The notes under the pieces were generated by a model that saw nothing but the letters and a program-made list of their open reading frames with translations, made no database searches and had not been told where the DNA came from. This document shows, piece by piece, positions 4,306 to 61,614 of a stretch of 64,000 nucleotides of DNA. The stretch is from a virus. Each line of letters starts with the position of its first letter. The stretch's first letter is position 1. The stretch lies in IMG/VR virus record IMGVR_UViG_3300045988_139610. One strand, given 5' to 3'. Both the position numbers and the translations under genes were made by a program.

Positions 4306-7300
4306 CTAACATTTTGAGAATCCACATTTACATTGTAAACAAGACCCCACAGTTGATAATTCTTCACCACACTCTGGACATTTATGATATCTACTTGCAA
4401 ATGCAGTTTCTCCATATTCTTTTATATAATCTAAATCTTCTTTAGTTAATGCGTTTTCTTCGATTTCTTTTTGCTTATCATGATTGTAATAATTTAAATC
4501 TACTAATTCTTTTAATACTTCTTCTTGTAAATCATTTTCTACATCAAGCAAACAATATAATATTGATGCACCACAGCTATTTCCTTTTGAAACTTCTATA
4601 CCTTTGCCTTTGGCTCTAACATAACTAGGACAAGTTCCAGCACCCTTAAATGATTTTTCTAATGATTTTAAATTACCTCCTATTCTTAAATCATGACTCA
4701 TTGCTATAGCTAAATTTTGTATCCCTAAAGCACATCCACCTTTAGATGAATTGGTAACATAAAAATCAAATATTCTCTTTTCTGTAGGTATAATTCCTAT
4801 ATGTAAAGTCATAGAACCACAACCACTTTTTATTTTTCTACGAATTTCAATTATTGATTCTGGTCTTTTTTCCCATTCACCTCTTAATAATTGTTCCTTT
4901 TCTTTATTATCTTTTTCGTTATCTATTGTTAATATACCTTTTCTTATTTCATTAGGTCTAAATATAGTACAACCACTTATACCATTTTTCCAACATTTAG
5001 TGTAAACATCTTTAGTATCTTCAAATGAATATTCAGTAGGAATATTAATTGTTTTACTACAACTCATATCAACATGATAAGACACTGTGCTTAATATGTT
5101 AACGTGGTCATCAACTGATAATTCCATAGCTGTAACAAATTTATTTTTATCAACTATATTTTCTTCAGAATTAAATTCTAACCATTTTTCATAAACATAG
5201 TCTCTCATTTTAAAAATTTCTATATTTTCGTCGTCCTGCCCACCTATTTTTATTTGTCTGTCATATTCTAAACTAAATATAGGTTCTAATGAAGAAGAAC
5301 AGTTATTACCATATGAAAGAGAAAGAGTCCCAGCAGGAGCTACACTTATCAATCTCCCATTACGTATACCATAAAATAAAATTTTATCTTTTATTTTTTC
5401 CCATTCTGGATATTTTTCAATATGTTTTCTTATAAAATTACTTTCAACGAATTTATTTTTGTCTAAAAAATTAAATGAACCTTTTTCTTTGGCTAAATCA
5501 CAGCTTGTATCGTAAGCATTTAAAGATATAAAATTCATCAATTCATCTGTAAATTTTATCGATTCTTCACTCCCGTATCTCATATTTAACATTGCAAACG
5601 TATCGGCTAATCCTGTTATTCCTAAACCAATAGTTCTTATATTTTTTTGATAATTTTCAAATTGTTTTAAAGGATAATTGTTAATATCTATTATATTATC
5701 CAACATTCTAACTGCGACGTTTATAACCTTTTGTAATTTATCGTAATCCATTTTCGCATCTTTTGTAAATGGGGCAATTACAAAATTGTGTAAAAATAAA
5801 CTCCCTAAATTACAAGCACCCATATAATCTTTTTTAATTCCTTCATCGTCATATAATATTCCACTAATATATTCAGCACAGTTATGTGCAACATATCCTT
5901 CTATTATGCCCCAATGATTTTTAGGTTCTGTAAAATCATATACTAATTTTTTACCATTATCTTTAATACTTCTTACATAAGGTACTCTTGATTTTATTAA
6001 TTTATTAAGTTTTATTTTTTTATAAGTTTGATAAAACCCTATAAATTGTGCAAATATTAATATGTCATCATATTTATTTATATTTACATCATAACTTTCT
6101 CTACATTCATATTCTCCATTTTTAAATTCTACCATATGTTTTTTATTTATTGTTAAATTTGCTGTTATTCCAAAATCTTTTTCTAAGGTATTTATAAGTT
6201 CTGTGGCAAATTCTTTACAAGTTGTTTTATAACTTACCCTTTTATTTGAATTAACACACCCATTGGCTGAAAAACAACCTTGTAAAAAGTTTGCCTTTTG
6301 ATTTAAATCCCATTCATTATAAGCTTTAGGCATTGCTCTATTTGGTAAAATTTCTTGTGAGAATTGAAATTTTTTCAGTAAATCATTATATCCTTGTAAA
6401 TATATTTCTCTATATGATTTCACAGTATACTTGTCATTTTCAAATAGATATCTTACGTCACCATCTTTCTCACCTATATTAACTTCAATGCCTTCATGTG
6501 ATTCACTATTTAATCTACTTAACTGTCCATCACCTTGTATAAATCCTAATTTAATATATAAATCGTCATCTTTGATTGTTTTATATATTTTTGGCATAAT
6601 TTTTTTACTTTTTAAATCTTTAGCTTTACATTCTTCTCCGTCTATTGTCATAAATCTATGGTCTGGAGTACAAGTTATTTCTTTTCCATTTGAAAATTTT
6701 AATTTAATTGTATCTTTTTCTCCATTACACCATACTTTTCCTTTTGTTATCTCACCGTCATAACTATAAATTAAAGGTTCTGTATTACATAATTCTTCCA
6801 ATGTTTTATAACCATCTTGTGTTAATAGTTTCATATCTCCTGTAAAACATGGGTTGGTAGTTACTATATTTTCCATGTAATAAAGATTGTTATTTTTATT
6901 CATGTTGTCATAATATAAAACTCCGTATTCACCTGTGTTATAAGCTTTTGTTATAATCAAATCCCACAGTTCTTTAGCATTAACTTCTTTTTTTGTTTTC
7001 CATTTTGACTCTTCATTAATTATTTCACCGTAATCACTCATACAAGGGTATCTTAAATATATTTTTTGATTATTTTCTACAGCCTTCATAAAATTATCAT
7101 CTACTAAAACTGATAAATTAAAATGAGTCAATCGTCCTTCGTCCCATGATTTTGATTCTAAAAAATCATATATATCTGGATGATAAATGCATAAACAACC
7201 CATATTAGCTCCTCTACGACTTCCTTGTAGGACGGTATGAGTTTGACTATCAAATGCATTCATAAAACTAACTACACCACTCGCTACAGCGTCATTTGAA

Positions 7301-7650
7301 GTAGGTGTACCGTTAGGTCTCAATAAACTAAAATTGTACCCTGTTCCTCCACCTGCTTTTTGTGTTATAGCACCGTATTTAACATAATCAAATATTCCTT
7401 CCATGGAATCTGGTACTAAATTTAAAGTAAAACAATTATTAAGAGTCAATGTTTTCCCTATACCAGAATTACTCATAGTTCTTCCAGCAGGATAAAATAA
7501 TCCTTCTAACATAATTTTTTTAAATTCTTCACATTCTTTTTCATTAGTACTCACATATTTTGCCACTCTTTCTATAGACTCATTGAAAGATTCATTGTTT
7601 TTTCTATATCTATCTTCCCATATTTGTTTTGAAATTAAATTAGTTATCAT
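4306..7650 (-). CDS. nrdJ: ribonucleotide reductase, class II (NrdJ)-like, carrying an intein
   Basis: N-terminal IWEDRYRKNNE..ERVAKYV and GGGTGYNFS. The active-site NPC(A)E motif is split by 323 aa. C-terminal CPECG..CLQCKC zinc ribbon. No NrdB-like gene in the window. The class assignment is less certain than the RNR call. Confidence 0.85.
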   Translation of the reverse strand: MITNLISKQIWEDRYRKNNESFNESIERVAKYVSTNEKECEEFKKIMLEGLFYPAGRTMSNSGIGKTLTLNNCFTLNLVPDSMEGIFDYVKYGAITQKAGGGTGYNFSLLRPNGTPTSNDAVASGVVSFMNAFDSQTHTVLQGSRRGANMGCLCIYHPDIYDFLESKSWDEGRLTHFNLSVLVDDNFMKAVENNQKIYLRYPCMSDYGEIINEESKWKTKKEVNAKELWDLIITKAYNTGEYGVLYYDNMNKNNNLYYMENIVTTNPCFTGDMKLLTQDGYKTLEELCNTEPLIYSYDGEITKGKVWCNGEKDTIKLKFSNGKEITCTPDHRFMTIDGEECKAKDLKSKKIMPKIYKTIKDDDLYIKLGFIQGDGQLSRLNSESHEGIEVNIGEKDGDVRYLFENDKYTVKSYREIYLQGYNDLLKKFQFSQEILPNRAMPKAYNEWDLNQKANFLQGCFSANGCVNSNKRVSYKTTCKEFATELINTLEKDFGITANLTINKKHMVEFKNGEYECRESYDVNINKYDDILIFAQFIGFYQTYKKIKLNKLIKSRVPYVRSIKDNGKKLVYDFTEPKNHWGIIEGYVAHNCAEYISGILYDDEGIKKDYMGACNLGSLFLHNFVIAPFTKDAKMDYDKLQKVINVAVRMLDNIIDINNYPLKQFENYQKNIRTIGLGITGLADTFAMLNMRYGSEESIKFTDELMNFISLNAYDTSCDLAKEKGSFNFLDKNKFVESNFIRKHIEKYPEWEKIKDKILFYGIRNGRLISVAPAGTLSLSYGNNCSSSLEPIFSLEYDRQIKIGGQDDENIEIFKMRDYVYEKWLEFNSEENIVDKNKFVTAMELSVDDHVNILSTVSYHVDMSCSKTINIPTEYSFEDTKDVYTKCWKNGISGCTIFRPNEIRKGILTIDNEKDNKEKEQLLRGEWEKRPESIIEIRRKIKSGCGSMTLHIGIIPTEKRIFDFYVTNSSKGGCALGIQNLAIAMSHDLRIGGNLKSLEKSFKGAGTCPSYVRAKGKGIEVSKGNSCGASILYCLLDVENDLQEEVLKELVDLNYYNHDKQKEIEENALTKEDLDYIKEYGETAFASRYHKCPECGEELSTVGSCLQCKCGFSKC
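5881..6849 (-). mobile_element. intein with LAGLIDADG homing endonuclease domain inside the RNR gene
   Basis: Starts with Cys (CFTGDMKLL, codon 268) and ends ..GYVAHN, followed by +1 Cys (CAEY). LAGLIDADG blocks LGFIQGDGQ and FLQGCFSANGC. Confidence 0.8.
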
Positions 7651-7675: not shown

Positions 7676-8443
7676 TTAATCTGTTATTTCAACTTCATAA
7701 GAATACATACCGTCATATAGCCTTTTAGGTATTAAGTCAAAGTAATAATCTGCTACTTCTTTAATATTCTTTTCTTTATAATATTTATATATTTCAAATC
7801 CTTTCTTTTGAGTTTCATAATAGCCTAAATATTCACATTTCGATTTTCCTGTTTCTGGATTAATCATATTACAACGTATTACATATTTACCATTTACAGG
7901 AGTTGTTCCTATCAGAGAATCACCTCTTGATTTATCACATTTAGTAAATAAACTATTGATTGTATGTGGCACAAAAATACAAGTTTCTGGACTATAAATT
8001 TTATTACCTTTAACTAATATATCTTTGTCCAAATGCATCCTTTCCCCTTCTACTTCATAATAATTTTCATAATACCATTTAGCGAAATTCTGAAAGTTAT
8101 GCCATTCATCACAAACTTCGCATCCAATGTAAGTCGGATTTCTTTTATGGAATTTATCAGAATAACATCTTTTTAGCATATCGTGCCAAACATCATAACA
8201 TTTTGTAGCCTTACTATTTTTACTTACTTTATATTTACCTTCCCCTAAATACCCCACTCCATATATACTTCTCTCATAAGGACATTTTATTTCACCTTTT
8301 TTAAAATTTCTATATGCTTTATTTTTAACCGTCCAATCATATTGAGGAAAATAAACGTCTATATCTATAGCCTTCCTATAATTAATAATTATCATCTCAC
8401 TTCCGAAGTTATTTATATTCTTTTCACCAGTTCTATCATTCAT
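7676..8443 (-). CDS. free-standing homing-endonuclease-like protein with AP2-type C-terminal domain (paralog 1 of 4)
   Basis: Shares NINNFGSEM, CPYER, GVGYLGEGKYKVS, W..ML.RCY, LDKDILVKGNKIYSPETCI and GTTPVNGKY...LGYY.T...F..YK.YKE with 20481.., 24088.. and 54633... Confidence 0.55.
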   Translation of the reverse strand: MNDRTGEKNINNFGSEMIIINYRKAIDIDVYFPQYDWTVKNKAYRNFKKGEIKCPYERSIYGVGYLGEGKYKVSKNSKATKCYDVWHDMLKRCYSDKFHKRNPTYIGCEVCDEWHNFQNFAKWYYENYYEVEGERMHLDKDILVKGNKIYSPETCIFVPHTINSLFTKCDKSRGDSLIGTTPVNGKYVIRCNMINPETGKSKCEYLGYYETQKKGFEIYKYYKEKNIKEVADYYFDLIPKRLYDGMYSYEVEITD

Positions 8444-9638: not shown

Positions 9639-10847
9639 TTATTGTTGTAACCAATTTTCTAATAAATTTCTCATTCTTTTAGATGGTATATAAATATTAA
9701 TTTTCTTTCCATCTCTTAACTGTGACCTAAATATCCATTGAATCAATTCTGATAATGCAAATGTATTCTCATCGACTTTAACGTCTTTACTCCTAAAGAA
9801 TTTTAATATCATTGGATTATTGAATATGTTTACTATATATGCTAAATTTTTCTTATGTCTATATTCATTAGTTGCTCTAGCATTACAGCTTACGAAACCT
9901 TTAGTGTATCCTTTACCTTTACATTTAGATTTATAATCTTTAAATGTAGTCCACATATTTTCTTGACTTTTTGATTTTACTTTATGTTGAAAATAATTTA
10001 GTATATTATTTTTTAATACATCAAATCCATCTCCCTTGCTTTCATCTTGTTTCATATACCAAGATTTACTTAACGCATATTTATCTTCACCTATTTTATT
10101 TAACTTTTTATCGTCACATATATTTACTAATTCTTTTATATGAGATAAATCTTCATGTTTATTATAATCCACAATTTCATATTTGTTATTAATTTTATTC
10201 ACTGATTTATATTCATACTCGACATTATTCATATCGTAATAATACCTTTGTATTTGCCCTGTAAACATATAAGTTAAGATATAAGTGTGCTTTAAAGCTC
10301 TCATAATAGAGACTGGGAAAGTCCATAATATAAAGCAATTATCATATATGTAACAATCTCCTTTTTCAATTGCATTTTTATATTTAAATAATGTCCCTTT
10401 GTAATTTTTATCAATCCATGTTAACTTACCATCTTCAGATACATCAACTTTATCTCTAAGCAATATTTCTCTATCTGATTTAGTTATTTTTATTTCTTCT
10501 AAAACATTAAATACCTCGTCAAGTATTAAAGTGTAATTATACTCTTTTAGATATTTCAAAGTGCTTTCATCTATCATAGCAAATAGTGAATGCGTGGATA
10601 CGATATTCTTACCTTGACTTAACAATTTGTTAAAGTCTTTTAATTTAGAACCTTCACCTCTGTCTGTTTTAGGTTCATAGAAAGCTCTATCTACACACCC
10701 ATCTAACACTCTTTGTATTTCATCTAAATAAGGTGTAATGTAAATAAATTTTTTATTTGTGTTTGTATTCATATAATCGATTGCCCAGCTTGTTTTACCT
10801 GCTCCTGGTATGCAATCAACTACTGTTACTTTGCATTGATTTTCCAT
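9639..10847 (-). CDS. SF2 helicase-like P-loop ATPase (paralog 1)
   Basis: Walker A PGAGKTS, ITPYL, STHSLF, Walker B LILDEVF, RATN, and motif VI-like LIQWIFRSQLRD. Confidence 0.6.
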   Translation of the reverse strand: MENQCKVTVVDCIPGAGKTSWAIDYMNTNTNKKFIYITPYLDEIQRVLDGCVDRAFYEPKTDRGEGSKLKDFNKLLSQGKNIVSTHSLFAMIDESTLKYLKEYNYTLILDEVFNVLEEIKITKSDREILLRDKVDVSEDGKLTWIDKNYKGTLFKYKNAIEKGDCYIYDNCFILWTFPVSIMRALKHTYILTYMFTGQIQRYYYDMNNVEYEYKSVNKINNKYEIVDYNKHEDLSHIKELVNICDDKKLNKIGEDKYALSKSWYMKQDESKGDGFDVLKNNILNYFQHKVKSKSQENMWTTFKDYKSKCKGKGYTKGFVSCNARATNEYRHKKNLAYIVNIFNNPMILKFFRSKDVKVDENTFALSELIQWIFRSQLRDGKKINIYIPSKRMRNLLENWLQQ

Positions 10848-11451: not shown

Positions 11452-12492
11452 TTAATTATTTTTTAATAATAAATTTACAAATAATTCTTCCAAAACATTA
11501 ACAACTATACTATTTCCTGCTTGTTTATATAGTTGAGTATCACTAATTTTATTTTCTTTTAATTTAAAATAATCTTTATCGTCAAATCCCATCAATCTAA
11601 AACATTCTAGTGGTGTCAGCCTTCTTATATCATAGTTATTTATTTCATTAATTTTTTCTAATAAATCATTACTTGATAAAAATTTATTAGTATATTCTAT
11701 ATATTCATATGGTAAATCTATATCAATAATATAATTGTCGTCCATTCTACTTCCCGCTTTAGTAGTTAAAGTATATGCTATATTGGCATTCTTTTTAACA
11801 TGAGGTCTAAACTTAAATGTATTTCCTTTTTGTTCCTGTTTAAAACTATTATTTATATAAAAATCTTTTGTTTTTAATAAATTATATTTTTTATCTACAT
11901 TTTCTTCTAACAAGTCTTTTAATGTTATGGTAAGTTCTTTTTCTTCTGGAAATTCATAAGGTTTATGTTTACCTAATACACTTATACAATATATTCGTCT
12001 TCTATTTTGAGGAATTCCATAATCTATAGCGTTTAATACTTTATAATAAGATGTATATCCTATCTCTTCTAATACGTCGATATATTTTTGAAAATTATGT
12101 ATATGTTTTTTATGTAACACATTCCTTACGTTTTCCCAAATAACATATTTTGGTTTACAATGTTTTATTATCTCAACGCTATTCCACATCAAACTACTTT
12201 TTGTTCCACTACCTTCGTCAGCTCCATCTTGTGCCCCTACACTTGAAAAGCTTTGACAAGGTGACCCATGTGTTATAATATCTATATTTTTGGGCAAATC
12301 AAATATGTTTATTTTTGTTATATCTTTTAAATTTAATTCTTCTGATACGTTATGTATTATACTATAAGATTTACTGGCAAATTTATCTATTTCACAATAA
12401 TTAACCAATTCATAATCAACACCTATATTGTTCAATGCTTTTTCAAAAGCACCTATCCCACTAAATAAACTTAACATCCTCAACTTTTCCAT
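11452..12492 (-). CDS. dcm: DNA (cytosine-5) methyltransferase
   Basis: C5-MTase motifs FSGIGAFE (I), GSPCQSFS (IV), ENV (VI), QNRRR (VIII) and GNS (X). Confidence 0.9.
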   Translation of the reverse strand: MEKLRMLSLFSGIGAFEKALNNIGVDYELVNYCEIDKFASKSYSIIHNVSEELNLKDITKINIFDLPKNIDIITHGSPCQSFSSVGAQDGADEGSGTKSSLMWNSVEIIKHCKPKYVIWENVRNVLHKKHIHNFQKYIDVLEEIGYTSYYKVLNAIDYGIPQNRRRIYCISVLGKHKPYEFPEEKELTITLKDLLEENVDKKYNLLKTKDFYINNSFKQEQKGNTFKFRPHVKKNANIAYTLTTKAGSRMDDNYIIDIDLPYEYIEYTNKFLSSNDLLEKINEINNYDIRRLTPLECFRLMGFDDKDYFKLKENKISDTQLYKQAGNSIVVNVLEELFVNLLLKNN

Positions 12493-12520
12493 AATATTAC
12501 CTCCTTTTAATTTATTATAT

Positions 12521-12563
12521 CTTATATTACAGTATTAACATAACTTACTTAAAAATTACCTAT
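12521..12563 (-). promoter_or_regulatory. class-B phage promoter/leader
   Basis: Sense CATAGGTAATTTTTAAGTAAGTTATGTTAATACTGTAATATAAG. Confidence 0.55.
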
Positions 12564-12609
12564 GGATGAAAATTATTTTATTAATTATTTTCATCGCCCT
12601 ATATTAATA

Positions 12610-12637
12610 AGTATACCATATTGTAAAAATTTGTCAA
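12610..12637 (-). promoter_or_regulatory. class-A sigma-A-type promoter
   Basis: Sense TTGACA-N16-TATACT. Confidence 0.6.
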
Positions 12638-12644
12638 TACTTTT

Positions 12645-12682
12645 TTAAATAAAAAATCACCACCTTTTTACAGATGGTGATG
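12645..12682 (-). terminator. rho-independent terminator after the DGQHR gene
   Basis: Sense ATCACCA-loop-TGGTGAT followed by TTTTTTATTT, starting 4 nt after the stop. Confidence 0.7.
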
Positions 12683-12685
12683 AAA

Positions 12686-13810
12686 TTATAAATTACTATA
12701 AAACTCTTGTTTAAACACCCTTATCATTAATGCTCTTGATTGTTTAGTGTTAATTGTGATATAAGTTTCTTTTCCTTCTTTAATTATGCAATCCCAAATA
12801 CTATTAGACTTTGAAAAATCTATTTCTTCTAAAGCTTTCAATTCTTCTTTCCACTTGCCAGATTTTCGCTTCATGTATAAATCTTCTGCTAGTGATATAT
12901 AAGCATGGAACATAATATCTTCACATTCTAATGATTCTTTTCTAATTAATATACGTCCTTCTCCATCTTTCATGTGGGGGAATAAACAAAATAGTTCATT
13001 GAAAAATGAAGATAAAAACATATATATTTCCTTCTCTTCTGATTCATTTTTAATTGAGGGGAACGATTCATCTATTGCCATTTTTAGGGTATTAAAAGTT
13101 ACTATGTGTTCCATATCATCTTTGCTTACGCTATTTTTTCTTACGTCAATCATGCCTTTAAGAACAGAATGTTCATTTAACCTTAATATGATTCGGTTGC
13201 TAGCTTTAGTGCTGTCAAAACTCTCGGCTAAAGATTTACTTATTTTTAATCCTTTAGACATTTGAGAAAACACAATCTTGGCTTTAGAATCACTGTAATG
13301 AGTTAACATAATTGGAAATATAGTATTTTTCACATTCTTAATTAATTCTTCATCGCCAAGTATTTGAGAAGATTTATAAGCTCGGTAACATGCTTTAACT
13401 CTATGATTTCCGTCTAATAAAGCTATGCTTCCTTTAATAAAAAGTTCTCTTTTATCTTTATTATAATTAATTAATCCTTTACCATTATTAAGCACATTGA
13501 ATGTTAATTGAGTAGTTCCTAGTTGCCCTTTTAATATTAAATTCTGCATTTCTAATATGTTTGATTGTTTTGTTATTGTTTCTTCTTTTATTTTATTATT
13601 AATTTTTTTATATTTCACTCCACGTTGAGTAGGAATGTAATATGTCAATTCCTCTTTATCCCACATTCTACCGATTTCTTCTGCTGATAGGTGTGTAAGA
13701 TATTTGTTATTGCCTAAATCTATTACATCTTTAAAAGTTTTAAGTACGAAAAATTCTTTTTCATTTTCTTTATAAATATTATTTTTATTTATAATTTTCA
13801 CATTAATCAC
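12686..13810 (-). CDS. DGQHR-domain (DndB-like / ParB-nuclease-fold) protein
   Basis: LLDGNHRVKA (DG[QN]HR motif) and upstream IPTQRGV (QR motif). The real start is probably the GTG at 13799-13801, 5 nt after AGAGGTGA. Confidence 0.5.
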   Translation of the reverse strand: MINVKIINKNNIYKENEKEFFVLKTFKDVIDLGNNKYLTHLSAEEIGRMWDKEELTYYIPTQRGVKYKKINNKIKEETITKQSNILEMQNLILKGQLGTTQLTFNVLNNGKGLINYNKDKRELFIKGSIALLDGNHRVKACYRAYKSSQILGDEELIKNVKNTIFPIMLTHYSDSKAKIVFSQMSKGLKISKSLAESFDSTKASNRIILRLNEHSVLKGMIDVRKNSVSKDDMEHIVTFNTLKMAIDESFPSIKNESEEKEIYMFLSSFFNELFCLFPHMKDGEGRILIRKESLECEDIMFHAYISLAEDLYMKRKSGKWKEELKALEEIDFSKSNSIWDCIIKEGKETYITINTKQSRALMIRVFKQEFYSNL

Positions 13811-13821
13811 CTCTTATATAA

Positions 13822-13850
13822 ATGATAACATATAAGATGATTAATGTCAA
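13822..13850 (-). promoter_or_regulatory. class-A sigma-A-type promoter for the DGQHR gene
   Basis: Sense TTGACA-N17-TATCAT, directly preceded by the 17-mer. Confidence 0.65.
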
Positions 13851-13871
13851 TACTATCTTTAAATTTATTAA

Positions 13872-14607
13872 TTATTTTCTTTTATAATTTTTATAATACT
13901 CCTTCTTTATTTCTTTTTTCTTTTTCAATATTCTGACTCTGCTATACTCTACTTGCTCCTTGTCTATTTCACTTGCAATGTAATAAATATTTTCATTAAT
14001 TGTTGCTAAACATGTACTCCCAGTCCCACAAAACGTGTCAAAGACAATTCCTCTTTTTTTCACATACATATTTAATAATTCTTTTACTAATTCAGTTGAA
14101 AATACATGATGATTAAATGTTTTAACTCCTTTGTCTCTAACTGGTGCATTAATTATATTAGATATATTAGTATATGTTTTTTGTCCGTTCTCTCTGTGGC
14201 TTTTAACCTTTTTGTTAGTCTTGTAAGTTTTGAATTCATTCTTTCTGCAAAATAAATGTATTTGTGATACATTTTTTGTTGATTGATTACAACTCATATT
14301 ATCTGGTAAAATACCAACTTTATTCCAATATATAATGTCACCTAATTGAAATTCTGTATTCATTTCTATTTCATTTATTATTTGGAATATTTCACTTGGT
14401 TTCTTTCTGTTATATGGGATTTCAATTAATATTGTTCCATTATCTACTAATATTTTATCAAACTGTTGAAATAGATTTATGTAGTCCTCCTTAGATAAGT
14501 TAGGGAGGACTTTGAGTCAGTATAACATCTACTTTGAAATTTTCTTCAACCATTTGTTCCATTAGAGAAAAACAATCTGTATTATATATTACATTTTTTT
14601 CAATCAT
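13872..14607 (-). pseudogene. beta-class N4-C/N6-A DNA methyltransferase disrupted at the (S/D)PPY motif
   Basis: ATG at 14605-14607. MIEKNVIYNTDCFSLMEQMVEENFKVDVILTQSPP-TAA(14500-14502). The +1 frame continues NLSKEDYINLFQQFDKILVDNG.. into track ORF 13872..14363, which carries motif I FDTFCGTGST. Total length is 736 nt (3n+1). Confidence 0.7.
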
Positions 14608-24929: not shown

Positions 24930-25985
24930 TTAATTATTTTTTATATTCTTTTTATAATAATTAAACAAACTATTAGGGTCTTTTCTTTGTCTTTCTACTT
25001 CATGCCAGTCCATTTTTCCTCTAACTTTCCAGTCCCCGTATCCTCCTTGTTCAACATGACAATCTTGGTTTAATCCCATATTTATTTCATCACCGTAATA
25101 TATACAAACATCACCATCTAATGAAAATAACATATCAACGGCTTTAAATAACTTATTCATATCATGTTCTACAGAATTGCTAATTCTGCTCATATCATGA
25201 TTACATAAGAAGTTGACATCATATTTTGGGTCATTTTTAATTACTAATGGATTTCCTGTGTTTAAGGAATGTTTCATCCAACCAGATTCTTCAAAATTAA
25301 AAGTTTTCATTCCTGTTTCTTTGGCATATTTATTACTTATTTCATATGTATCCCAAGCCTCTCCAACTATATAAGCGTTTGGTTTTATTTTATAAACTTC
25401 GTCACAAAACCATTTCCAAAATTCAATCGGATTACCAGATGCATAGATTATAGCATCTAATCTAAATCCATCTACTTTATGGTCTATTAACCAAAACTTT
25501 ATTATATCTTTTATCATATCTTTTACTGTTTCAGATTGATTGTTTAACTGTGGCATGTCATAACTCCATTTTGCTAAATAATATTTCTGATTATCATGAC
25601 ATATTCTCCATTGATTATTTTGTTGATTGTTACTCCAGAAGTAACAATCATTTTGCCCTTTTATACTTTCTTTAAATAATTCATTTTGTGTACTTGTATG
25701 ACATAATACTAAATCCAATAGAATTTCTAATCCATTTTCATGTGCTACTTCTACAAATCTATCAAAATCTTCTAATGTTCCGTATTCTTTTTTAATATCT
25801 GTGTAATCTATTATATCGTATCCATGTTGATTGCAAGAAGGGAAGATAGGAGTTAGCCATAGGGTAGTAACTCCTAATTCAACAAAGTAAGGAATTTTCT
25901 TTTCCAAATCTTTTAAGTCTTTACAAAATGCTGGAAAATATATCTCATAAATTATTCTTCTTTTTTTATTCTGCACAAAAATCAC
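24930..25985 (-). CDS. glycoside hydrolase family 13 (alpha-amylase catalytic domain) protein, short, no signal peptide
   Basis: GH13 regions WLTPIF..HGYDIIDY, DLVLCH (I), DGFRLDAI (II), VGEAWD (III) and FLCNHDMSR (IV). The catalytic Asp/Glu/Asp positions are present. Confidence 0.8.
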   Translation of the reverse strand: MIFVQNKKRRIIYEIYFPAFCKDLKDLEKKIPYFVELGVTTLWLTPIFPSCNQHGYDIIDYTDIKKEYGTLEDFDRFVEVAHENGLEILLDLVLCHTSTQNELFKESIKGQNDCYFWSNNQQNNQWRICHDNQKYYLAKWSYDMPQLNNQSETVKDMIKDIIKFWLIDHKVDGFRLDAIIYASGNPIEFWKWFCDEVYKIKPNAYIVGEAWDTYEISNKYAKETGMKTFNFEESGWMKHSLNTGNPLVIKNDPKYDVNFLCNHDMSRISNSVEHDMNKLFKAVDMLFSLDGDVCIYYGDEINMGLNQDCHVEQGGYGDWKVRGKMDWHEVERQRKDPNSLFNYYKKNIKNN

Positions 25986-30683: not shown

Positions 30684-31997
30684 TTAAAATTTATCACTCT
30701 CTAATACCTCTAGTAGTTGTGGAATATCTACTCCGAAACCTTCTGTTAATTTTGTACTTCCTACGAAATCATTCCAACTAAATGCCGTAGTAAATGTATA
30801 TGTTTTGTTACTTGTATTTGCTCTTGTATATTTAGGTTTTCTAGTAGCACTTGTACCGAATAACACCTTTGCTCTAAGCACTTCAAATGAGTAACCTCTC
30901 CCAGCTTTCTCGATGTTCTTAATCAAGTTGTTTAAACTCTCTGTATAAGCATTTGTAATTCTACATGTAAAGTAATTAAATATCTCATACTGCCAGTTAT
31001 CAACTGTTTTGATTACATCTTGGTAGTATTTCATATCCTTTGGAACTGCTTTTTTCCAGTCCTCATAAGCCTTTAAAGCATCTTCTCGATTATCATGTTT
31101 ATAGATATCCCTAAATTGTTCTTTTAACTCATAGGCTAACTTTAACTGTGGAAAATCTAGAAACATTAGCTGCATATCCCAAATCTGTTTAGGTTCTAAA
31201 TCTTCCTTATTCCTTAATAGCAAGAATCTATCCTTTAACAGCTTAGACCTTTGCTTTCTGTCTAGAGAACCTTTAAATGACTTTCTCTCACCTTCTAAAG
31301 CATTATTAACTAATTGTATTACATGGAATCTGTCAACTATTACCTGAGCTTTTGGCAACTCCTCATAGACTGCCTCTTTGTAGTATCTCCACATATCTAT
31401 GGTTACTACTTCTATGTTATTCTTATTAGGCAATTTGCTCAGAAAAGCCTTTACATCGGACTTCTTACGGCTTGGCTGGATATCCAATACCTTACGTCCA
31501 ATTATATCGGTATAAACGGCTCTCATGCTTTTATTTAGATGTGCTTCGTCTATGCCTAATATAACTGGAGTGAGGAATGTCATATCCTTTTCTAACCTTT
31601 CTATGTAAGCATTAAATATTCTCTTTACTGTAGTAGGAGAAACACTATATTCTTCTGCTATATTGGCGAATGGCTTTTTAAGGGATTCTTTTTCTATTTG
31701 CTCTCTTAAACGAATAGTGATTTTATCTCTATCGTCAATACTTTTGTAATGTTGACTAAATGTAGTACCGCAGTATCTGCATTTATATCTATGTGTATGT
31801 ATTTCAATCCCTACACGTTTCCCAAAGCTGTTCAAATCCCTCACAAATCTCTTTGATTTGCCATGCTTATAATATTCAACTCCACCACACTCTGGGCAAG
31901 CCACAGGCTCTTTAACTGGTTTAACTATTACTGTCATGTCATGTTCATCTTGTATTGTGTCTATAACTTCAAACTCTGGTAAATTTAGTATATTCAT
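30684..31997 (-). CDS. ISL3 family transposase
   Basis: N-terminal zinc-finger pattern CPECG..YKCRYCG, then the DDE_Tnp_ISL3-like body (IDEAHL.., VTIDMW, DRFHVI, NAYTESLN). Confidence 0.85.
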   Translation of the reverse strand: MNILNLPEFEVIDTIQDEHDMTVIVKPVKEPVACPECGGVEYYKHGKSKRFVRDLNSFGKRVGIEIHTHRYKCRYCGTTFSQHYKSIDDRDKITIRLREQIEKESLKKPFANIAEEYSVSPTTVKRIFNAYIERLEKDMTFLTPVILGIDEAHLNKSMRAVYTDIIGRKVLDIQPSRKKSDVKAFLSKLPNKNNIEVVTIDMWRYYKEAVYEELPKAQVIVDRFHVIQLVNNALEGERKSFKGSLDRKQRSKLLKDRFLLLRNKEDLEPKQIWDMQLMFLDFPQLKLAYELKEQFRDIYKHDNREDALKAYEDWKKAVPKDMKYYQDVIKTVDNWQYEIFNYFTCRITNAYTESLNNLIKNIEKAGRGYSFEVLRAKVLFGTSATRKPKYTRANTSNKTYTFTTAFSWNDFVGSTKLTEGFGVDIPQLLEVLESDKF

Positions 31998-45645: not shown

Positions 45646-46560
45646 CTACTTATATATTTTATTAGCTATATTTAATAAACCTTGTGCTTGTAAAGTTATA
45701 TCTTCAGATGATATTGTTTGTTGATATATCTTTTTCATTGTAGGTGATATAATTTTAGCTCCACCACCAATAATGAGAATATTTGAATTCTTGATGTTAT
45801 TTGCTTGCCCTTTTATTTCATTTACTAAATTAACTATAAATTTCTTAACTAACTCTTCTTTGTATTTGAAATCACCTACTAATAAAGATTCTTCATTATC
45901 AAATATTCTTTTTGTTTGTTCTAATGATAATGATAAATCATATGTTAAGTTAAGATATTCTCTACAAGAATTGTATAAATCAAACAATCCTAATCTTATA
46001 CTAAATCCATCTTTTAATTGCATTTTATTATCGTAGATTGTAATATCGCATGTATTCCCACCTATATCCACAACCATCGTGTCTACATTTTTATTTAATT
46101 TATTCATTATACCTTGTATAGATTTGATTGAATAAGACTCTGGAAGTATTGTAACATTCTCAATTACTATGCTTCTTTTAATCCCATTTATAATTATAGT
46201 CTTTTTATTATTCTTTTTAATATAATCTTCCATTTTATCTTTCTTTTTATATTGATTAACAGGACAACAAGTTACCAAATTGATATTGTTTTCCGTATCT
46301 TTTGTAGCATTTGCTATACAATAATAAAGTAATATTAAATAATTGTCTTTTTTATATTTTAAAAGTTCATTTTCATACTTTCCTTCACCAATTAAATAAC
46401 CCTCATCATCTATAGTGAATTTTTGATTTTGTGAAAAGTCATCTAAACCATTTTCGCATTGTTTAATTCTCGATTCACAAATACAACTCCCATTATTAGA
46501 TATAGCTATTGATGTTAAATTACCGATGTCTACTCCTATATTGATAATATTTTTACTCAT
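45646..46560 (-). CDS. parM: actin-like segregation ATPase (ParM/Alp family)
   Basis: Actin-fold motifs GVDIGNLTS, VVDIGGNTCD and IIGGGAKI. ATG at 46558-46560 follows GGAGAG. Confidence 0.7.
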   Translation of the reverse strand: MSKNIINIGVDIGNLTSIAISNNGSCICESRIKQCENGLDDFSQNQKFTIDDEGYLIGEGKYENELLKYKKDNYLILLYYCIANATKDTENNINLVTCCPVNQYKKKDKMEDYIKKNNKKTIIINGIKRSIVIENVTILPESYSIKSIQGIMNKLNKNVDTMVVDIGGNTCDITIYDNKMQLKDGFSIRLGLFDLYNSCREYLNLTYDLSLSLEQTKRIFDNEESLLVGDFKYKEELVKKFIVNLVNEIKGQANNIKNSNILIIGGGAKIISPTMKKIYQQTISSEDITLQAQGLLNIANKIYK

Positions 46561-46620
46561 AATATCACTCTCCAAAATATTGATTATTATACACCTCTAC
46601 CCTATAGGTTATATAATAAA

Positions 46621-56014: not shown

Positions 56015-56755
56015 TTATGCCAATTTCTTTAAATCCTCTTCTTCAAATTCTATTTCTAATAATTTACTTATCTCATACACACCTTTAGGTGAAAATTTTA
56101 ATTGTGAATAATTATGTTCATTATTACTTCCTACAATAAGTTTATACCATGATTTATCTACATCACTATAAGGTAACCAACTCGTTCCCTTTTTATATAT
56201 TATTTTATTTTCATTTAATATCTTGTTTAATTTTTGTGCTGATGACAATTTAAATAATTTAGCTACTTGCGTACTCGAATAACAACCATTTGAATTAAGA
56301 AAATCGTCAAACCAACTTGCCTTCTCGTCTCTTTGTTTTGACAGTTCGGCTCTTCGTCTTTCAATTTCAATTCTTTCTTCTTTAGTTAAATTTGGGTCTA
56401 ATGATTTCAATATCAATCTATCTAATTCAGAAACCTGCTCTTCTAGCGTATTTATATATTCAATCATTTTGGCTCTAACATAAACCGATTCACTAGCACA
56501 CATTTGCAATATACCATCTTTATTCATTTCATATGTAGGATATTCTTTACCTCTAGTATTTATATAAGTTGACTCCTTAAAATTTAGGAGTGAATCTTTT
56601 AACTTTAATTCTTGCAGAATATTAACTTCTTTTCTTATTTTAGTTAAGAAGTTATCTTCTCTCAACTCTTTTCTATTACCTTCCATTTTTCTTAATTCAT
56701 TAATTTTAGCACATAATTCTACGTGATTCATTTTACATTCTTTTAATTCTAACAT
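56015..56755 (-). CDS. antirepressor-like protein (Rha-like N-terminal part, KilAC-like C-terminal part)
   Basis: YEMNKDGILQMCAS.. and the C-terminal YSSTQVAKLFKLSSAQKLNKILNENKIIYKKGTSWLPY fit recalled patterns. Confidence 0.55.
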   Translation of the reverse strand: MLELKECKMNHVELCAKINELRKMEGNRKELREDNFLTKIRKEVNILQELKLKDSLLNFKESTYINTRGKEYPTYEMNKDGILQMCASESVYVRAKMIEYINTLEEQVSELDRLILKSLDPNLTKEERIEIERRRAELSKQRDEKASWFDDFLNSNGCYSSTQVAKLFKLSSAQKLNKILNENKIIYKKGTSWLPYSDVDKSWYKLIVGSNNEHNYSQLKFSPKGVYEISKLLEIEFEEEDLKKLA

Positions 56756-56892: not shown

Positions 56893-56920
56893 AAAAACAA
56901 AAAAAGAAACCAGAGATTTT

Positions 56921-57793
56921 CTAGTTTCTTGAAGAGTTCATACCATAATATAAACGATGATACTTTAAGCTTAGTTCGTTAGCGTTCATATTGTATCCAT
57001 TTATATCAAGATAACTCTTTGTATTTTGTATAGTCCATACAATATTATCTAATACTTGTAATACAAACATGTCATACATGATGCCTGATTGGTATATTCC
57101 TGTAGCTGTTAATGTAACATTTAATCCTCCATGTTGTAATTCTTTTGTTAAAACAGTCAATTTTCCACTCAAATTGCTACGTTTCATTGGTTCTAAACCA
57201 TTGTTAGTATATCTATTACATAATGTCTTGAATAAATACTCACTGCTCATGTTCAAGTCATAATACATAACATTTCGACTTCTTGTTGTATTAACATATA
57301 CTTCTTGTTCTATCGTGTCTTTAACTAACTCTTTCATTATATCGTCGCATAGTATTTTATTTCCATTTACATTAATATAACTGTAGTCTTCAGCTACGTC
57401 AGAAACCTTAATCTCTAATAGGTCTTTAAATCCTTTACCTAATACTTTATTAAATATCATGTATATTAATAATTTATCTTGTGCATTTATAAGTGAATTA
57501 ATTACATCTAATATTTGAGTTTTTGTGAAGTATTTAGATTCGTCAAAATATAAACATTTTTGCATTAATTCATCTTCTTTTAAATCGTATTTAATTCCCT
57601 TTGTATCTAATACTTCTTTTAAAATTCTAAATCCATCGTAGAAACTACTTCTATTAATTGTCTTTAGATTTTTTATAGCGAAATCTTTTATCACTTCTTC
57701 ATTTATATTTTTTTCACCTATTTCATTAATTAAATCGTTCACCTTATTTTCCATTCTATTCATTTTAATTTGTTTATCACACATCTTAGTCAT
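56921..57793 (-). CDS. hypothetical protein
   Basis: ORF behind an operator-flanked promoter. The stretch LLIYMIFNKVLGKGFKDLLEIKVSDV faintly recalls a tyrosine-recombinase core, but no catalytic residues were identified. Confidence 0.5.
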   Translation of the reverse strand: MTKMCDKQIKMNRMENKVNDLINEIGEKNINEEVIKDFAIKNLKTINRSSFYDGFRILKEVLDTKGIKYDLKEDELMQKCLYFDESKYFTKTQILDVINSLINAQDKLLIYMIFNKVLGKGFKDLLEIKVSDVAEDYSYINVNGNKILCDDIMKELVKDTIEQEVYVNTTRSRNVMYYDLNMSSEYLFKTLCNRYTNNGLEPMKRSNLSGKLTVLTKELQHGGLNVTLTATGIYQSGIMYDMFVLQVLDNIVWTIQNTKSYLDINGYNMNANELSLKYHRLYYGMNSSRN

Positions 57794-57806
57794 TTTAACT
57801 CCTTCC

Positions 57807-57854
57807 TTAGTTGTCTTGCTTAGTATATCATAAAATATATTTTAAGACAACTAA
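57807..57854 (-). promoter_or_regulatory. promoter TTGTCT-N17-TATACT bracketed by a perfect 11-bp inverted repeat
   Basis: TTAGTTGTCTT (57807-57817) and AAGACAACTAA (57844-57854). -10 at 57822-57827, -35 at 57845-57850. Confidence 0.55.
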
Positions 57855-57935
57855 CTTTATTAATTTTCTTTATATATTATACACAGATTGGAGTTTAAAT
57901 ATACCAACTTTTATTAATTATTTTTTAAAATAAGC

Positions 57936-57963
57936 AAAAAAAATAAGAGGTATAAAACCTCTT
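57936..57963 (-). terminator. rho-independent terminator
   Basis: Sense AAGAGGT-TTTAT-ACCTCTT followed by ATTTTTTTT. Confidence 0.75.
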
Positions 57964-60708: not shown

Positions 60709-61614
60709 TTAATCCCAAACATTATTTACCATTTTCTTTTTAGTATCTGTATTAGGATGGTAATAAAAAGAGTAGGTTGTTTGTGGATTACTATGTCCAG
60801 CTAGCTTTGCTGTTTCTGTAACATTAAATCCATTCTCCATATATGCCGTTAAACTTGTATGGCGTGCCGTATGAGGCGTAAAATTTGTAATTCCTACACT
60901 TTTAGTTATGTTTGATATTATTTTTTCAAGTCCACTTGAAGACAAACGTTGTTTATAACTTGATATAAATAGTGAATTATCTTTTGCATTTATTTTTAAT
61001 CTTTCATCAAGATATTTATTATATAAATCTAAAGCTTTATCGCTTAATACACATTGCTTTTTACTGCCACCTTTTTGAGTAATAGTATATTCTCCTGTTT
61101 CTCTATCTATTGTATCAACGTTTAAACTTCTTATTTCAAAATTTCTAAGTGCATTTTGGAATAAAATTTCTACAATTAAAATATTTCTTAAATTGTTAAA
61201 ATTCTTTTTCAAATTATATTCTGATTTTACATAATTTCTAATCTTTGTTATGTTTTTTGTATCTTCTGCGTGACCTTTAGATTCAATTCTTAATTGTTTA
61301 AGTTCCTTACTAGCATTAAAATCAATAATCCTAAATGCACATAGATAACCATAAAATGATTTACAACTAGCTATCCTTCTGTTAAGACTTTGATTAGATA
61401 ATCCTTCATTTCTTTTTTTGTTTAACCAATTTTGTAATTGGATTATAGTAGAATTTTGTATATCATCTATTCTTTTAAATCCACAATACTCAATCATTTC
61501 CTTTACTACTGGAATATATGATTTAATACTTTTAGGTGATAAGTTTTTTATATCCTTCAAGTATGCTATATAATTATTTATTAATCTTTCCATATTATTA
61601 ACTTTTTCCATCAT
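60709..61614 (-). CDS. tyrosine recombinase (XerC/D-like integrase)
   Basis: SAM-like N-domain YIAYLKDIKNLSPKSIKSY. Catalytic ALRNFEIRSL (R), HTARHT (HxxR), LAGHS and ..TYSFYYH (Y). Confidence 0.85.
   Translation of the reverse strand: MMEKVNNMERLINNYIAYLKDIKNLSPKSIKSYIPVVKEMIEYCGFKRIDDIQNSTIIQLQNWLNKKRNEGLSNQSLNRRIASCKSFYGYLCAFRIIDFNASKELKQLRIESKGHAEDTKNITKIRNYVKSEYNLKKNFNNLRNILIVEILFQNALRNFEIRSLNVDTIDRETGEYTITQKGGSKKQCVLSDKALDLYNKYLDERLKINAKDNSLFISSYKQRLSSSGLEKIISNITKSVGITNFTPHTARHTSLTAYMENGFNVTETAKLAGHSNPQTTYSFYYHPNTDTKKKMVNNVWD

What the first reader, a model, noticed from the sequence alone, without database searches (positions are those of the whole stretch)
12645..13850. Self-contained DGQHR (DndB-like) cassette between two DNA methyltransferase genes
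The 374-aa ORF carries DG(N)HR and an upstream QR motif, typical of the DndB/DGQHR branch of the ParB-nuclease fold. Unlike its neighbours it has a private sigma-A promoter (TTGACA-N17-TATCAT, 13822-13850) and its own strong terminator (12645-12682), which is a moron-like layout. It sits between a broken SPPY-type MTase and an intact Dcm, next to tdk and thyX. In bacteria, DGQHR proteins accompany DNA-backbone or base-modification systems (Dnd, Dpd) as regulators or nickases. A solitary phage copy expressed from a host promoter could be a modification-sensing nuclease or regulator, an anti-restriction factor, or a superinfection-exclusion or defence gene of the carrier state. I know of no characterised phage example with this arrangement.
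Basis: partly seen in the sequence, partly recalled or inferred. Interest (0 to 1): 0.7.

Follow-up and report, generated by a model that had tools for sequence, protein, structure and literature searches.

The report
Phage SroE-like repressor gene cassette
The gene is real, but it is most likely this large clostridial-type phage's copy of SroE/YopQ, a DndB/ParB-fold "second repressor" already known from Bacillus phage SPbeta, here sitting in an unusually well-insulated expression cassette rather than acting as a DNA-modification or defence gene.

Summary
The likely start is GTG 13801, giving 371 aa.

The protein passes Pfam DndB but fails the TIGR DGQHR and DndB-equivalog cut-offs. No dnd, ssp or dpd genes are present. 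Its closest family is PHROG 5732, which holds SPbeta YopQ and phi3T_96, i.e. SroE, the published second lysogeny repressor of SPbeta phages (hhalign probability 100%).

The window also encodes SroF/MrpR-like and SroD/XerC-like proteins 43-47 kb away.

The gene is not a moron. It sits at the same position in all 15 close relatives examined, while dcm, tdk and an HNH gene come and go around it.

A private sigma-A promoter is not unusual here: there are 18 on the coding strand, and dcm has one. The unusual features are these:
- One of only five terminators in 64 kb follows the gene.
- A conserved hairpin holds the promoter in its 5' arm and loop and the SD and start codon in its 3' arm.
- That hairpin should block translation of read-through transcripts.

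Best reading: a prophage-state co-repressor. This is a new variant of a known kind, of moderate interest.

The parts
12686..13801 (-). CDS of the DndB/ParB-fold protein (371 aa from GTG 13801; the longest ORF starts at GTG 13810, 374 aa). QR at residues 59-60 and DGNHR at residues 130-134.
13822..13850 (-). Sigma-A-type promoter: -35 TTGACA at 13850-13845, 17-nt spacer with TG, -10 TATCAT at 13827-13822.
   Evidence: 11 of 12 match. The -35 is invariant and the -10 conserved in 15 relatives.
13800..13847 (-). Hairpin in the sense-strand RNA. The 5' arm (13847-13828) is the end of the -35 plus the spacer. The loop (13827-13820) holds the -10 hexamer. The 3' arm (13819-13800) holds the predicted transcription start, the SD AAGAGGTG (13815-13808) and the first two bases of the start codon.
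   Evidence: dG -21.8, z -5.75, 0 of 200 shuffles. Kept in 14 distinct relatives by compensating substitutions and indels. The sense fold is more stable than the antisense fold in 13 of 13 cases, with G-U pairs. None of the other 13 strong promoters in the window has such a hairpin.
12646..12681 (-). Intrinsic terminator: 10-bp stem-loop at 12681-12656 followed by a T-run.
   Evidence: It is one of only five on the coding strand in 64 kb. Conserved in relatives.
13865..13877 (-). Copy of the genome-wide gene-junction motif AAATAATTAATAA. It marks the upstream border of the cassette and overlaps the MTase stop codon.
13872..14607 (-). Split N6/N4 (SPP[Y]) DNA methyltransferase. The N-part at 14607-14500 ends SPP-TAA. 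The C-part continues in the +1 frame down to 13872. It is the constant upstream neighbour in this clade, and transcription through it would run into the hairpin.
11452..12637 (-). Downstream unit. It has its own sigma-A-like promoter (12637-12610), a phage-type bipartite motif (12562-12533) and dcm (12492-11452). dcm is an accessory gene present in only 2 of 16 related genomes.
56921..57793 (-). Candidate partner: an MrpR/SroF/YopR-like integrase-fold repressor (290 aa). It is flanked by terminators at 57963-57945 and 56930-56904. An 11-bp inverted repeat brackets its promoter.
   Evidence: phrog_5830 at E 3e-10. The top four PDB sequence hits are SroF/MrpR/YopR.
60709..61614 (-). Candidate partner: an XerC-type tyrosine recombinase (301 aa). 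It hits the same PHROGs (1 and 216) as SPbeta YopP/SroD.

Best explanation
The gene encodes a DNA-binding regulator of the DndB branch of the ParB fold. It belongs to the same phage family as SroE (YopQ/phi3T_96), the second lysogeny repressor of SPbeta-type phages.

**Proposed working**
1. The host sigma-A RNA polymerase transcribes the gene from its own promoter, in the carrier (prophage or plasmid) state and early after infection.
2. The protein binds phage DNA, possibly in a nucleotide-dependent way through the DG(N)HR patch, as ParB-family proteins do.
3. Together with the integrase-fold MrpR/SroF-like repressor encoded 43 kb upstream, it keeps lytic genes silent.
4. The cassette is insulated on both sides. 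Transcripts that read in from the upstream replication genes contain the whole hairpin, which locks the SD and start codon, so they are not translated. Transcripts from the cassette's own promoter begin inside the 3' arm and are translatable.
5. The terminator stops cassette transcription from running into dcm/tdk.

**Shown here:** family membership, fold, motifs, synteny, and conservation of the promoter, hairpin and terminator.

**Inferred:** repressor function, timing of expression, and the translational gating.
For: **Family**
- PHROG 5732 matches the window protein at E 4.6e-57, SPbeta YopQ at 6.9e-171 and the C. difficile phage protein at 1.2e-123.
- Both the window protein and YopQ hit Pfam DndB.
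- tblastn gives 24-27% identity over 84-94% of the length to YopQ and phi3T_96.
- phi3T_96 is the fifth gene of the phi3T_92-97 (sroABCDEF) operon.
- hhalign of the clostridial clade against the YopQ clade gives probability 100%, E 1.4e-48, over 315 columns.

**Published function of relatives**
- SroE is a second repressor required to establish lysogeny (10.1101/2025.11.27.690993).
- yopQ is transcribed from the dormant SPbeta prophage (10.1101/2021.11.22.469490).
- Salmonella DndB is an autoregulating repressor (PMC4507180).

**Fold**
- The top five PDB hits for the domain model are ParB and Noc, with probability 1.0.

**Partners**
- SroF-like and SroD-like genes are present in the window.
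- In relative L005 a Phage_integrase-domain gene lies directly upstream of the homolog, the same order as yopP-yopQ.

**Insulation**
- Promoter, hairpin and terminator are conserved in 15 relatives.
- Three of the five coding-strand terminators in the window flank the SroF-like gene (two) or follow the SroE-like gene (one).

**Core gene**
- It sits at the same position in all relatives.
- Its GC content matches its surroundings.
Against: - Identity to SroE is only 24-27%.
- The roughly 90-aa N-terminal extension of YopQ-type proteins is missing.
- The gene is not in an sro-type operon. It lies in the replication and nucleotide-metabolism module, 43 kb from the SroF-like gene.
- No arbitrium receptor was found.
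- In this clade the gene always follows an N6/N4 MTase.
- A temperate or plasmid lifestyle for this phage is inferred only from its gene content: antirepressors, an XerC-like gene, an actin-like segregation protein. No prophage copy turned up in representative genomes.
- How SroE itself works is unresolved.
- The transcription start, and hence the gating, is predicted and not measured.
Confidence: 0.55

Rival explanations
1. A carrier-state defence, superinfection-exclusion or modification-sensing enzyme. A ParB/DUF262-type NTPase or nuclease is made from a host promoter and attacks or senses incoming DNA according to its modification state.
For: The gene is an autonomous host-promoter unit with its own terminator. 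BFVD fold matches include DUF262/GmrSD N-terminal domains. ParB-superfamily proteins can be NTPases or nucleases (PMC10853773). Three MTase genes lie in the window.
Against: There is no HNH, DUF1524 or other nuclease domain, and the only PADLOC hit is the DndB model. No partner defence genes are present. The gene is a syntenic core gene, not an accessory one. Both characterised family members are repressors. dcm is an accidental neighbour.
Confidence: 0.13
2. A DndB-like controller of the phage's own DNA methylation. It would repress or time the adjacent N6/N4 MTase, or other MTases, much as DndB limits phosphorothioation.
For: The N6/N4 MTase is the constant upstream neighbour in all 15 clade members. 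DndB represses its own modification operon (PMC4507180).
Against: No MTase is adjacent in LIBA2945, L005 or SPbeta. The MTase is frameshifted. The two genes are separate expression units, and the hairpin uncouples them.
Confidence: 0.1
3. A ParB-like centromere-binding or DNA-organising protein of a plasmid-type prophage, acting in partition, or in genome compaction and silencing without a specific repressor role.
For: The fold matches ParB/Noc CTP clamps. Related C. difficile phages are extrachromosomal (PMC5786514). Homologs occur on 118-436-kb plasmid records. An actin-like segregation ATPase lies at 45646-46575.
Against: There is no adjacent ParA, and the actin-like gene is 32 kb away. SPbeta, which carries a homolog, integrates into the chromosome. 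The GERRxR CTP motif is replaced by DGNHR.
Confidence: 0.1
4. A replication or nucleotide-metabolism accessory protein of the lytic cycle, given its position between dnaE/thyX and tdk/nrd.
For: The gene is embedded in the replication and nucleotide-metabolism module here and in LIBA2945 and L005.
Against: The hairpin and terminator argue that the gene is deliberately uncoupled from those genes. It has no phage-type promoter motif of its own. The SPbeta homolog is in the lysogeny operon.
Confidence: 0.05

Closest known systems
SroE (YopQ of SPbeta; phi3T_96 of phi3T), second repressor of the sroABCDEF operon
   Same: It belongs to the same PHROG (5732) and the same Pfam family (DndB). Homology runs over the full DndB core (hhalign 100%). 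The QR, DGxHR, FxQ and N motifs are invariant. The host phage is of the same kind: about 130 kb, SPbeta-like replication genes, and SroF-like and SroD-like genes present.
   Different: Identity is only 24-27%. The roughly 90-aa N-terminal extension is absent. The gene is not in an operon with sroD/sroF or next to an arbitrium module. It is a stand-alone promoter-hairpin-terminator cassette inside the replication module.
'dndB' / 'DGQHR domain protein' of the big plasmidial C. difficile phages (phiCD5763, LIBA2945, LIBA6276)
   Same: This is the closest named relative (35% identity over 93% of the length). It has a similar length (379 aa) and a similar place, after dnaE and before nucleotide-metabolism genes.
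   Different: It is uncharacterised and has been used only as a PCR marker (PMC5786514). LIBA2945 lacks the leader hairpin, the adjacent MTase and the junction motif.
DndB of dndBCDE phosphorothioation clusters
   Same: Same Pfam family and DGQHR-type motif. DndB is a DNA-binding autorepressor, which fits a regulator role.
   Different: It fails the DndB equivalog model (51 bits against 328) and the TIGR DGQHR cut-off. No dndCDE/FGH, ssp or dpd genes are nearby.
ParB / Noc / KorB CTP-dependent DNA clamps
   Same: The N-terminal 200 residues give their best PDB fold matches to ParB and Noc (probability 1.0, TM 0.35-0.41). The DG(N)HR patch sits at the strand-to-helix position where, from memory, ParB has its GERRxR box.
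   Different: Sequence searches do not detect it. There is no ParA partner. The motif differs. The C-terminal half is a helical domain specific to this family.
Promoter inside an RBS-occluding hairpin (phage T4 lysozyme gene e and intron ORF I-TevI; recalled from memory, not checked in the library)
   Same: Long transcripts from upstream fold so that the SD and start codon are paired. A promoter within the hairpin gives shorter transcripts that lack the 5' arm.
   Different: Here the internal promoter is a host sigma-A type, not a phage late promoter. The gene is a putative repressor. Function has not been tested.

Membership tests
Pfam DndB (PF14072), ParB-like clan | Whole-protein HMM score above the gathering cut-off, covering most of the model | tested here: met
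   105.3 bits against 29.1, E 4.6e-30, profile positions 43-334 of 338.
Pfam DndB (PF14072), ParB-like clan | DGQHR-type motif and upstream QR motif | tested here: met
   Q59-R60 and D130-G131-N-H133-R134. D, G, H and R are invariant in 18 homologs, and the Q position varies.
TIGR03187 DGQHR domain | Score at or above NCBIfam's curated cut-off | tested here: not met
   33.8 bits against 58.85.
DndB proper (TIGR03233 equivalog) | Equivalog-level score | tested here: not met
   51.2 bits against 328. PADLOC DndB scores 54 bits.
DndB proper (TIGR03233 equivalog) | Linked dndCDE (or ssp/dpd) modification genes | tested here: not met
   Pfam scans of about 45 window ORFs found none. None appear in the neighbourhoods of relatives.
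SroE/YopQ family (PHROG 5732) | Sequence membership in the same family as YopQ and phi3T_96 | tested here: met
   PHROG 5732 at E 4.6e-57, and YopQ at 6.9e-171. hhalign probability 100%, E 1.4e-48.
SroE/YopQ family (PHROG 5732) | N-terminal extension of about 90 aa, as in YopQ-type proteins (430-460 aa) | tested here: not met
   The window protein aligns from YopQ residue ~92 onwards. Most distant representatives are 430-460 aa.
SroE/YopQ family (PHROG 5732) | Fifth gene of an sroABCDEF operon next to the arbitrium genes, directly upstream of sroF | tested here: not met
   The SroF-like gene (56921-57793) and the SroD-like gene (60709-61614) lie 43-47 kb away. No AimR homolog was found.
SroE/YopQ family (PHROG 5732) | Repressor activity, and a requirement for establishing lysogeny | not testable with these tools
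   Needs genetics and DNA-binding assays. The only indirect support is the insulated cassette with a host promoter.
ParB/Srx-fold NTP-dependent DNA clamps | ParB N-terminal domain fold | tested here: met
   Domain model pLDDT 89, pTM 0.82. The top five PDB hits are ParB and Noc, probability 1.0, E 3e-3 to 1e-2, TM 0.35-0.41, followed by noise. The match is weak in TM terms.
ParB/Srx-fold NTP-dependent DNA clamps | GERRxR CTP-binding box and a ParA or parS partner | tested here: not met
   The motif is DGNHR. No ParA-type gene is adjacent. Nucleotide binding cannot be tested here.
DUF262/GmrSD/SspE-type defence nucleases | C-terminal HNH or DUF1524 nuclease domain | tested here: not met
   Only the DndB model hits in Pfam and PADLOC. 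The C-terminal half is helical in the model.
Moron (autonomous accessory gene of a prophage) | Own promoter and terminator | tested here: met
Moron (autonomous accessory gene of a prophage) | Sporadic presence among related phages, or deviant composition | tested here: not met
   Present at the same locus in all 15 relatives (63-99% identity). GC is 0.26-0.29, like the flanks.

The most novel reading that the evidence does not exclude
The two-repressor (integrase-fold plus ParB/DndB-fold) lysogeny system of SPbeta may extend, in dispersed form and without arbitrium, to large plasmid-type phages of clostridia-like hosts. In that reading the ParB-fold component is a nucleotide-gated DNA clamp that silences the phage genome. 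Its synthesis is restricted to the carrier state by a host promoter hidden inside an RBS-locking hairpin, so that lytic read-through RNA cannot make more repressor.
Probability: 0.25. Interest if true: 0.65.

Novelty: new variant of a known kind. Interest (0 to 1): 0.42.

Why it matters
SroE is a recently recognised second master repressor, and its mechanism is openly described as unknown. This clade supplies a shorter, stand-alone version of it, with many natural sequence variants and a clean regulatory cassette.

That gives three practical uses:
- **A minimal system.** It can be used to ask how a ParB/DndB-fold protein represses a phage genome.
- **A check on distribution.** It can show whether the SPbeta-type repression system is widespread outside Bacillus.
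- **A testable mechanism.** The hairpin offers a way to decouple a lysogeny gene from the surrounding lytic transcription.

It also corrects a recurrent database mis-naming. PGAP labels this phage family 'DNA sulfur modification protein DndB', which invites wrong inferences about DNA modification.

Tried and rejected
**Searches that gave nothing**
- An exact-sequence look-up of the protein found no record.
- A profile search of PDB sequences found no hit.
- Foldseek of the full-length model against PDB gave only noise, with TM below 0.13. Only the 201-residue domain model found ParB and Noc.
- A scan of one genome per species for close relatives found none. The host and any integrated copies remain unknown.
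- The first alignment (A2) was too diverse for locus finding.
- No tRNA and no Rfam family lie in the window.

**Ideas rejected**
- The 391-aa ORF at 59362-60537 is not an AimR-like receptor. It is a paralog of the YonV-like protein and has no PDB or AimR similarity.
- The abundant 13-mer AAATAATTAATAA is probably not the SPBRE-like operator of the repressors. It has 52 exact copies at nearly every gene junction, against about 10 promoter-associated SPBREs in SPbeta.
- The inverted repeat is probably not a DNA palindromic operator. Its arms differ widely between close relatives, it contains 2-4 G-U pairs, and the sense strand folds 1-13 kcal/mol better than the antisense in 13 of 13 variants.

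**Technical limits on the covariation analysis**
- RNAalifold on the MAFFT alignment recovered only the inner stem, because the indels in the two arms were misaligned.
- The covariance-model alignment mixed in antisense matches, so I used per-sequence folds instead.
- My first guess at the spacing of the second motif (N17) gave no matches. N13 gave 15.
Full report
**1. What is in the sequence**

The minus-strand ORF 12686-13810 (374 aa, GTG start) is present. Three observations point to the second GTG at 13801 as the real start, giving 371 aa:
- Close homologs are all 369-371 aa.
- Several relatives have ATG at the position of the second GTG.
- The first GTG lies inside the Shine-Dalgarno sequence AAGAGGTG.

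The only minus-strand terminator in that stretch is at 12681-12656. It has a 10-bp stem and a U-run, with dG -14.4 kcal/mol and z -4.7.

The neighbours are as described:
- thyX
- an N6/N4 MTase broken right after its SPP motif
- the gene itself
- an intact Dcm
- tdk

**2. Family**

| Model | Score | Cut-off |
|---|---|---|
| Pfam DndB | 105 bits | 29 bits |
| NCBIfam DGQHR domain | 33.8 | 58.85 |
| NCBIfam DndB equivalog | 51 | 328 |
| PADLOC DndB (only hit) | 54 bits | none |
| PHROG 5732, 'unknown function' | E 4.6e-57 | none |

PHROG 5732 is by far the best match.

Searching phage genomes by tblastn gave 35% identity to the 'DGQHR domain protein' of the 132-kb C. difficile phages LIBA2945 and LIBA6276. 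It gave 24-27% identity over 84-94% of the length to SPbeta YopQ and its phi3T counterpart.

YopQ itself hits PHROG 5732 (E 6.9e-171) and Pfam DndB. The phi3T hit is phi3T_96, the gene directly upstream of the master repressor phi3T_97.

A profile-profile comparison of the window's clade with YopQ-type proteins gives probability 100%, E 1.4e-48, over 315 columns.

Q59-R60, D130-G131-x-H133-R134, F178-x-Q180 and N202 are invariant across both clades.

The family is sizeable: 1263 clusters at 50% identity. Most members are 430-460 aa and carry an N-terminal extension of about 90 aa that the window protein lacks.

**3. What the characterised relatives do**

- The yopMNOPQR and phi3T_92-97 operons were renamed sroABCDEF (PMC10769878). 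YopQ and phi3T_96 are therefore SroE.
[quoted passage not shown] Its relation to SroF is unknown (10.1101/2025.11.27.690993).
- yopQ and yopR are among the few conserved genes transcribed from the dormant SPbeta prophage. A yopQ mutant gives translucent, lysing colonies (10.1101/2021.11.22.469490).
- YopQ was noted to carry a ParB_N_Srx-type domain (PMC8612738).
- Salmonella DndB is an autoregulating transcriptional repressor that binds palindromes in its own promoter (PMC4507180). Enzymatic roles for DndB have also been proposed (PMC10853773).

The primary SroE paper (Brady et al., Cell Host Microbe 2023, recalled from memory) is not held in the library.

**4. Fold**

The full-length AlphaFold model (pLDDT 85.7) gave nothing in PDB. 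In the viral structure library it matched DUF262/GmrSD-N, 'DNA-sulfur modification-associated' and ParB-like proteins.

A model of residues 15-215 (pLDDT 89, pTM 0.82) gave ParB and Noc as its five best PDB hits. These had probability 1.0, E 3e-3 to 1e-2 and TM 0.35-0.41, and were followed by noise.

The ParB-fold assignment therefore holds, weakly in TM terms. No nuclease domain is present.

**5. Context in this phage**

The window is a one-directional block of early, replication and nucleotide-metabolism genes (26% GC). It is distantly related to LIBA2945 and SPbeta in its helicase, primase, DnaE, ligase and YonV-like genes. No dnd, ssp or dpd genes were found.

The window also encodes two candidate partners:
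- **A 290-aa protein at 56921-57793.** It hits the YopR/MrpR PHROG 5830 (E 3e-10). Its four best PDB sequence hits are SroF, MrpR and YopR.
- **An XerC-type recombinase at 60709-61614.** It hits the same PHROGs as YopP/SroD.

LIBA2945 has the same pair, adjacent to each other.

Homologs of SroD, SroE and SroF are thus all present but dispersed. No AimR was found.

In a 44%-identical relative (L005), a Phage_integrase-domain gene sits directly upstream of the homolog, matching the yopP-yopQ order.

**6. A core gene, not a moron**

Fifteen relatives (63-99% identity, mostly from 126-140-kb viral contigs) all show the order dnaE ... thyX - split MTase - [HNH] - this gene - [dcm/tdk] - YonV-like.
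- dcm is present only here and in L016.
- tdk is present in about half.
- An HNH gene is inserted between the MTase and this gene in 8 of the 15.

GC content matches the flanks.

**7. What is and is not special about the cassette**

Near-consensus sigma-A promoters are common on the coding strand. There are 18 sites matching at least 11 of 12 positions, 15 of them intergenic, against 3 on the other strand. One of them sits just upstream of dcm (12637-12610). The 'private promoter' is therefore not distinctive.

Terminators are rare. Only five lie on the coding strand in 64 kb. Two of them flank the SroF-like gene and one follows this gene.

The leader is the new point. From the end of the -35 to the start codon (13847-13800) the sense RNA folds into a 19-bp hairpin.
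- The -10 hexamer is in the loop.
- The SD and start codon are in the 3' arm.
- Folding gives dG -21.8, z -5.75, with 0 of 200 shuffles as stable.

All 14 distinct sequence variants among the relatives keep the hairpin (dG about -14 to -25, z -3.3 to -8.4). Between 14 and 17 of the 19 nt from SD to start codon are paired. The arms are kept complementary by compensating substitutions and matched indels.

In 13 of 13 variants the sense fold is more stable than the antisense fold (mean 7.9 kcal/mol), and 12 of them contain 2-4 G-U pairs. This points to an RNA structure and not a DNA operator.

None of the other 13 strong promoters in the window has such a structure (z -1.3 to +1.9). The hairpin is absent from L005, LIBA2945 and SPbeta yopQ. 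A covariance model of it finds exactly one site per genome.

No terminator lies between 45369 and this gene. Transcripts from upstream would therefore carry the whole hairpin, with the ribosome-binding site occluded. These include transcripts from a probable phage-type promoter at 16425-16396. Transcripts from the gene's own promoter should start near 13815, inside the 3' arm, and be translatable.

This is the logic known from T4 gene e and I-TevI (recalled from memory). The transcription start and the gating effect are inferences.

**8. Interpretation**

The most economical reading is an SroE-type, prophage- or carrier-state regulator. Its synthesis is tied to its own host promoter and shielded from lytic read-through. 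It is likely to act with the MrpR/SroF-like repressor, whose gene is similarly insulated.

I put this at about 0.55. The reasons for caution are:
- low identity to SroE
- the missing N-terminal extension
- the unlinked position in the replication module
- the constant MTase neighbour in this clade
- an unproven lifestyle
- the unknown mechanism of SroE itself

The rivals and their weights are:

| Rival | Weight |
|---|---|
| Defence or modification-sensing enzyme | 0.13 |
| Controller of the phage MTases | 0.10 |
| ParB-like partition or organising protein of a plasmid prophage | 0.10 |
| Lytic replication accessory | 0.05 |

Related C. difficile phages are extrachromosomal, and their 'dndB' was used only as a PCR marker (PMC5786514). 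Homologs also occur on plasmid records.

**9. Verdict**

It is wrong on 'solitary moron', on the link to DNA modification, and on the absence of a characterised phage example.

I rate it a new variant of a known kind (SroE/YopQ family), of moderate interest. The variant features are that the gene is stand-alone, shorter, relocated and gated by a hairpin.

Noticed in passing
whole window, - strand (e.g. 13877-13865, 12590-12578, 11461-11449, 10874-10862, 7675-7663): The 13-mer AAATAATTAATAA (extended form TAA-AAATAATTAATAA-A) occurs 52 times exactly, always on the coding strand. With up to one mismatch there are 70 copies, against 8.2 +/- 2.6 expected. It sits at gene junctions. It overlaps or follows the upstream stop codon and precedes either an RBS or a TATTGACA promoter. 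Together with the preceding TAA it gives stops in all three frames. Relatives L003-L025 carry 8-15 copies per ~21 kb (only 2 in the short 6.5-kb locus L004). It is absent from SPbeta and L005, with a single copy in the 132-kb LIBA2945 genome. It may be a module-boundary or recombination linker, which would explain the HNH, dcm and tdk insertions around the cassette.
   Followed up: partly
15 sites on the - strand, e.g. 19598-19569, 16425-16396, 12562-12533, 9416-9387, 56891-56862: The bipartite motif TAGGTAATTT-N13-GTTAATA occurs 15 times (up to 2 mismatches), all on the coding strand, against 0.28 expected. It lies upstream of gene blocks, and in two cases directly after the terminators of the SroF-like and SroE-like cassettes. 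It is probably a phage-specific promoter class. The DndB-like gene has none of its own.
   Followed up: partly
13872-14607 (-): The N6/N4 MTase is split at its catalytic motif. The N-part ends ...LTQSPP-TAA (stop at 14502-14500) and the rest continues in the +1 frame, as if 2 nt of SPPY-NL were missing. The same CCC-TAA/TAG junction with +1 continuation was found directly in four relatives (L013, L014, L019, L024). The same split into a short N-terminal ORF and a C-terminal part appears in most of the 15, although the C-part has diverged to 56-88% identity. This is either a programmed +1 frameshift or an old shared pseudogene.
   Followed up: partly
56904-57963 (-): The MrpR/SroF-like gene (56921-57793) is flanked by terminators at 57963-57945 and 56930-56904. 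Its promoter region is bracketed by a perfect 11-bp inverted repeat, TTAGTTGTCTT (57854-57844 and 57817-57807). An Ant/Rha antirepressor gene (56015-56755) follows.
   Followed up: partly
30684-31997 (-): A complete ISL3-family transposase (DDE_Tnp_ISL3, zinc ribbon, HTH) lies inside the phage replication region. It appears to be an IS insertion.
   Followed up: no
4306-7650 (-): The class I ribonucleotide reductase large subunit is interrupted by an intein with a LAGLIDADG endonuclease, as in SPbeta bnrdE.
   Followed up: no
24930-25985 (-): An alpha-amylase-family catalytic domain protein (E 9e-53) sits among the replication genes. This is unexpected cargo for that module.
   Followed up: no
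45646-46575 (-): An actin-like segregation protein (ALP_N plus MreB-like_C) is present. This suggests plasmid-like maintenance of the prophage, as reported for the related C. difficile 'plasmidial' phages.
   Followed up: no
9639-10847 and 59362-60537 (-): There are two paralogous YonV-like P-loop proteins (402 and 391 aa; PHROG 2467, and YonV_C in relatives). One lies next to the SroD-like recombinase and the other just downstream of the DndB-like cassette.
   Followed up: no
7676-8443 (-); loci L003, L013, L014, L016-L018, L020, L024: An HNH homing-endonuclease-like gene (PHROG 953) has several mobile copies. In 8 of 15 relatives a copy is inserted exactly between the MTase and the DndB-like promoter.
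   Followed up: partly
public records H33-H36, P0046, P0048: NCBI annotation names YopQ-family phage and plasmid proteins 'DNA sulfur modification protein DndB', although they score far below the DndB equivalog model and lack dnd partners. This looks like systematic over-annotation.
   Followed up: partly
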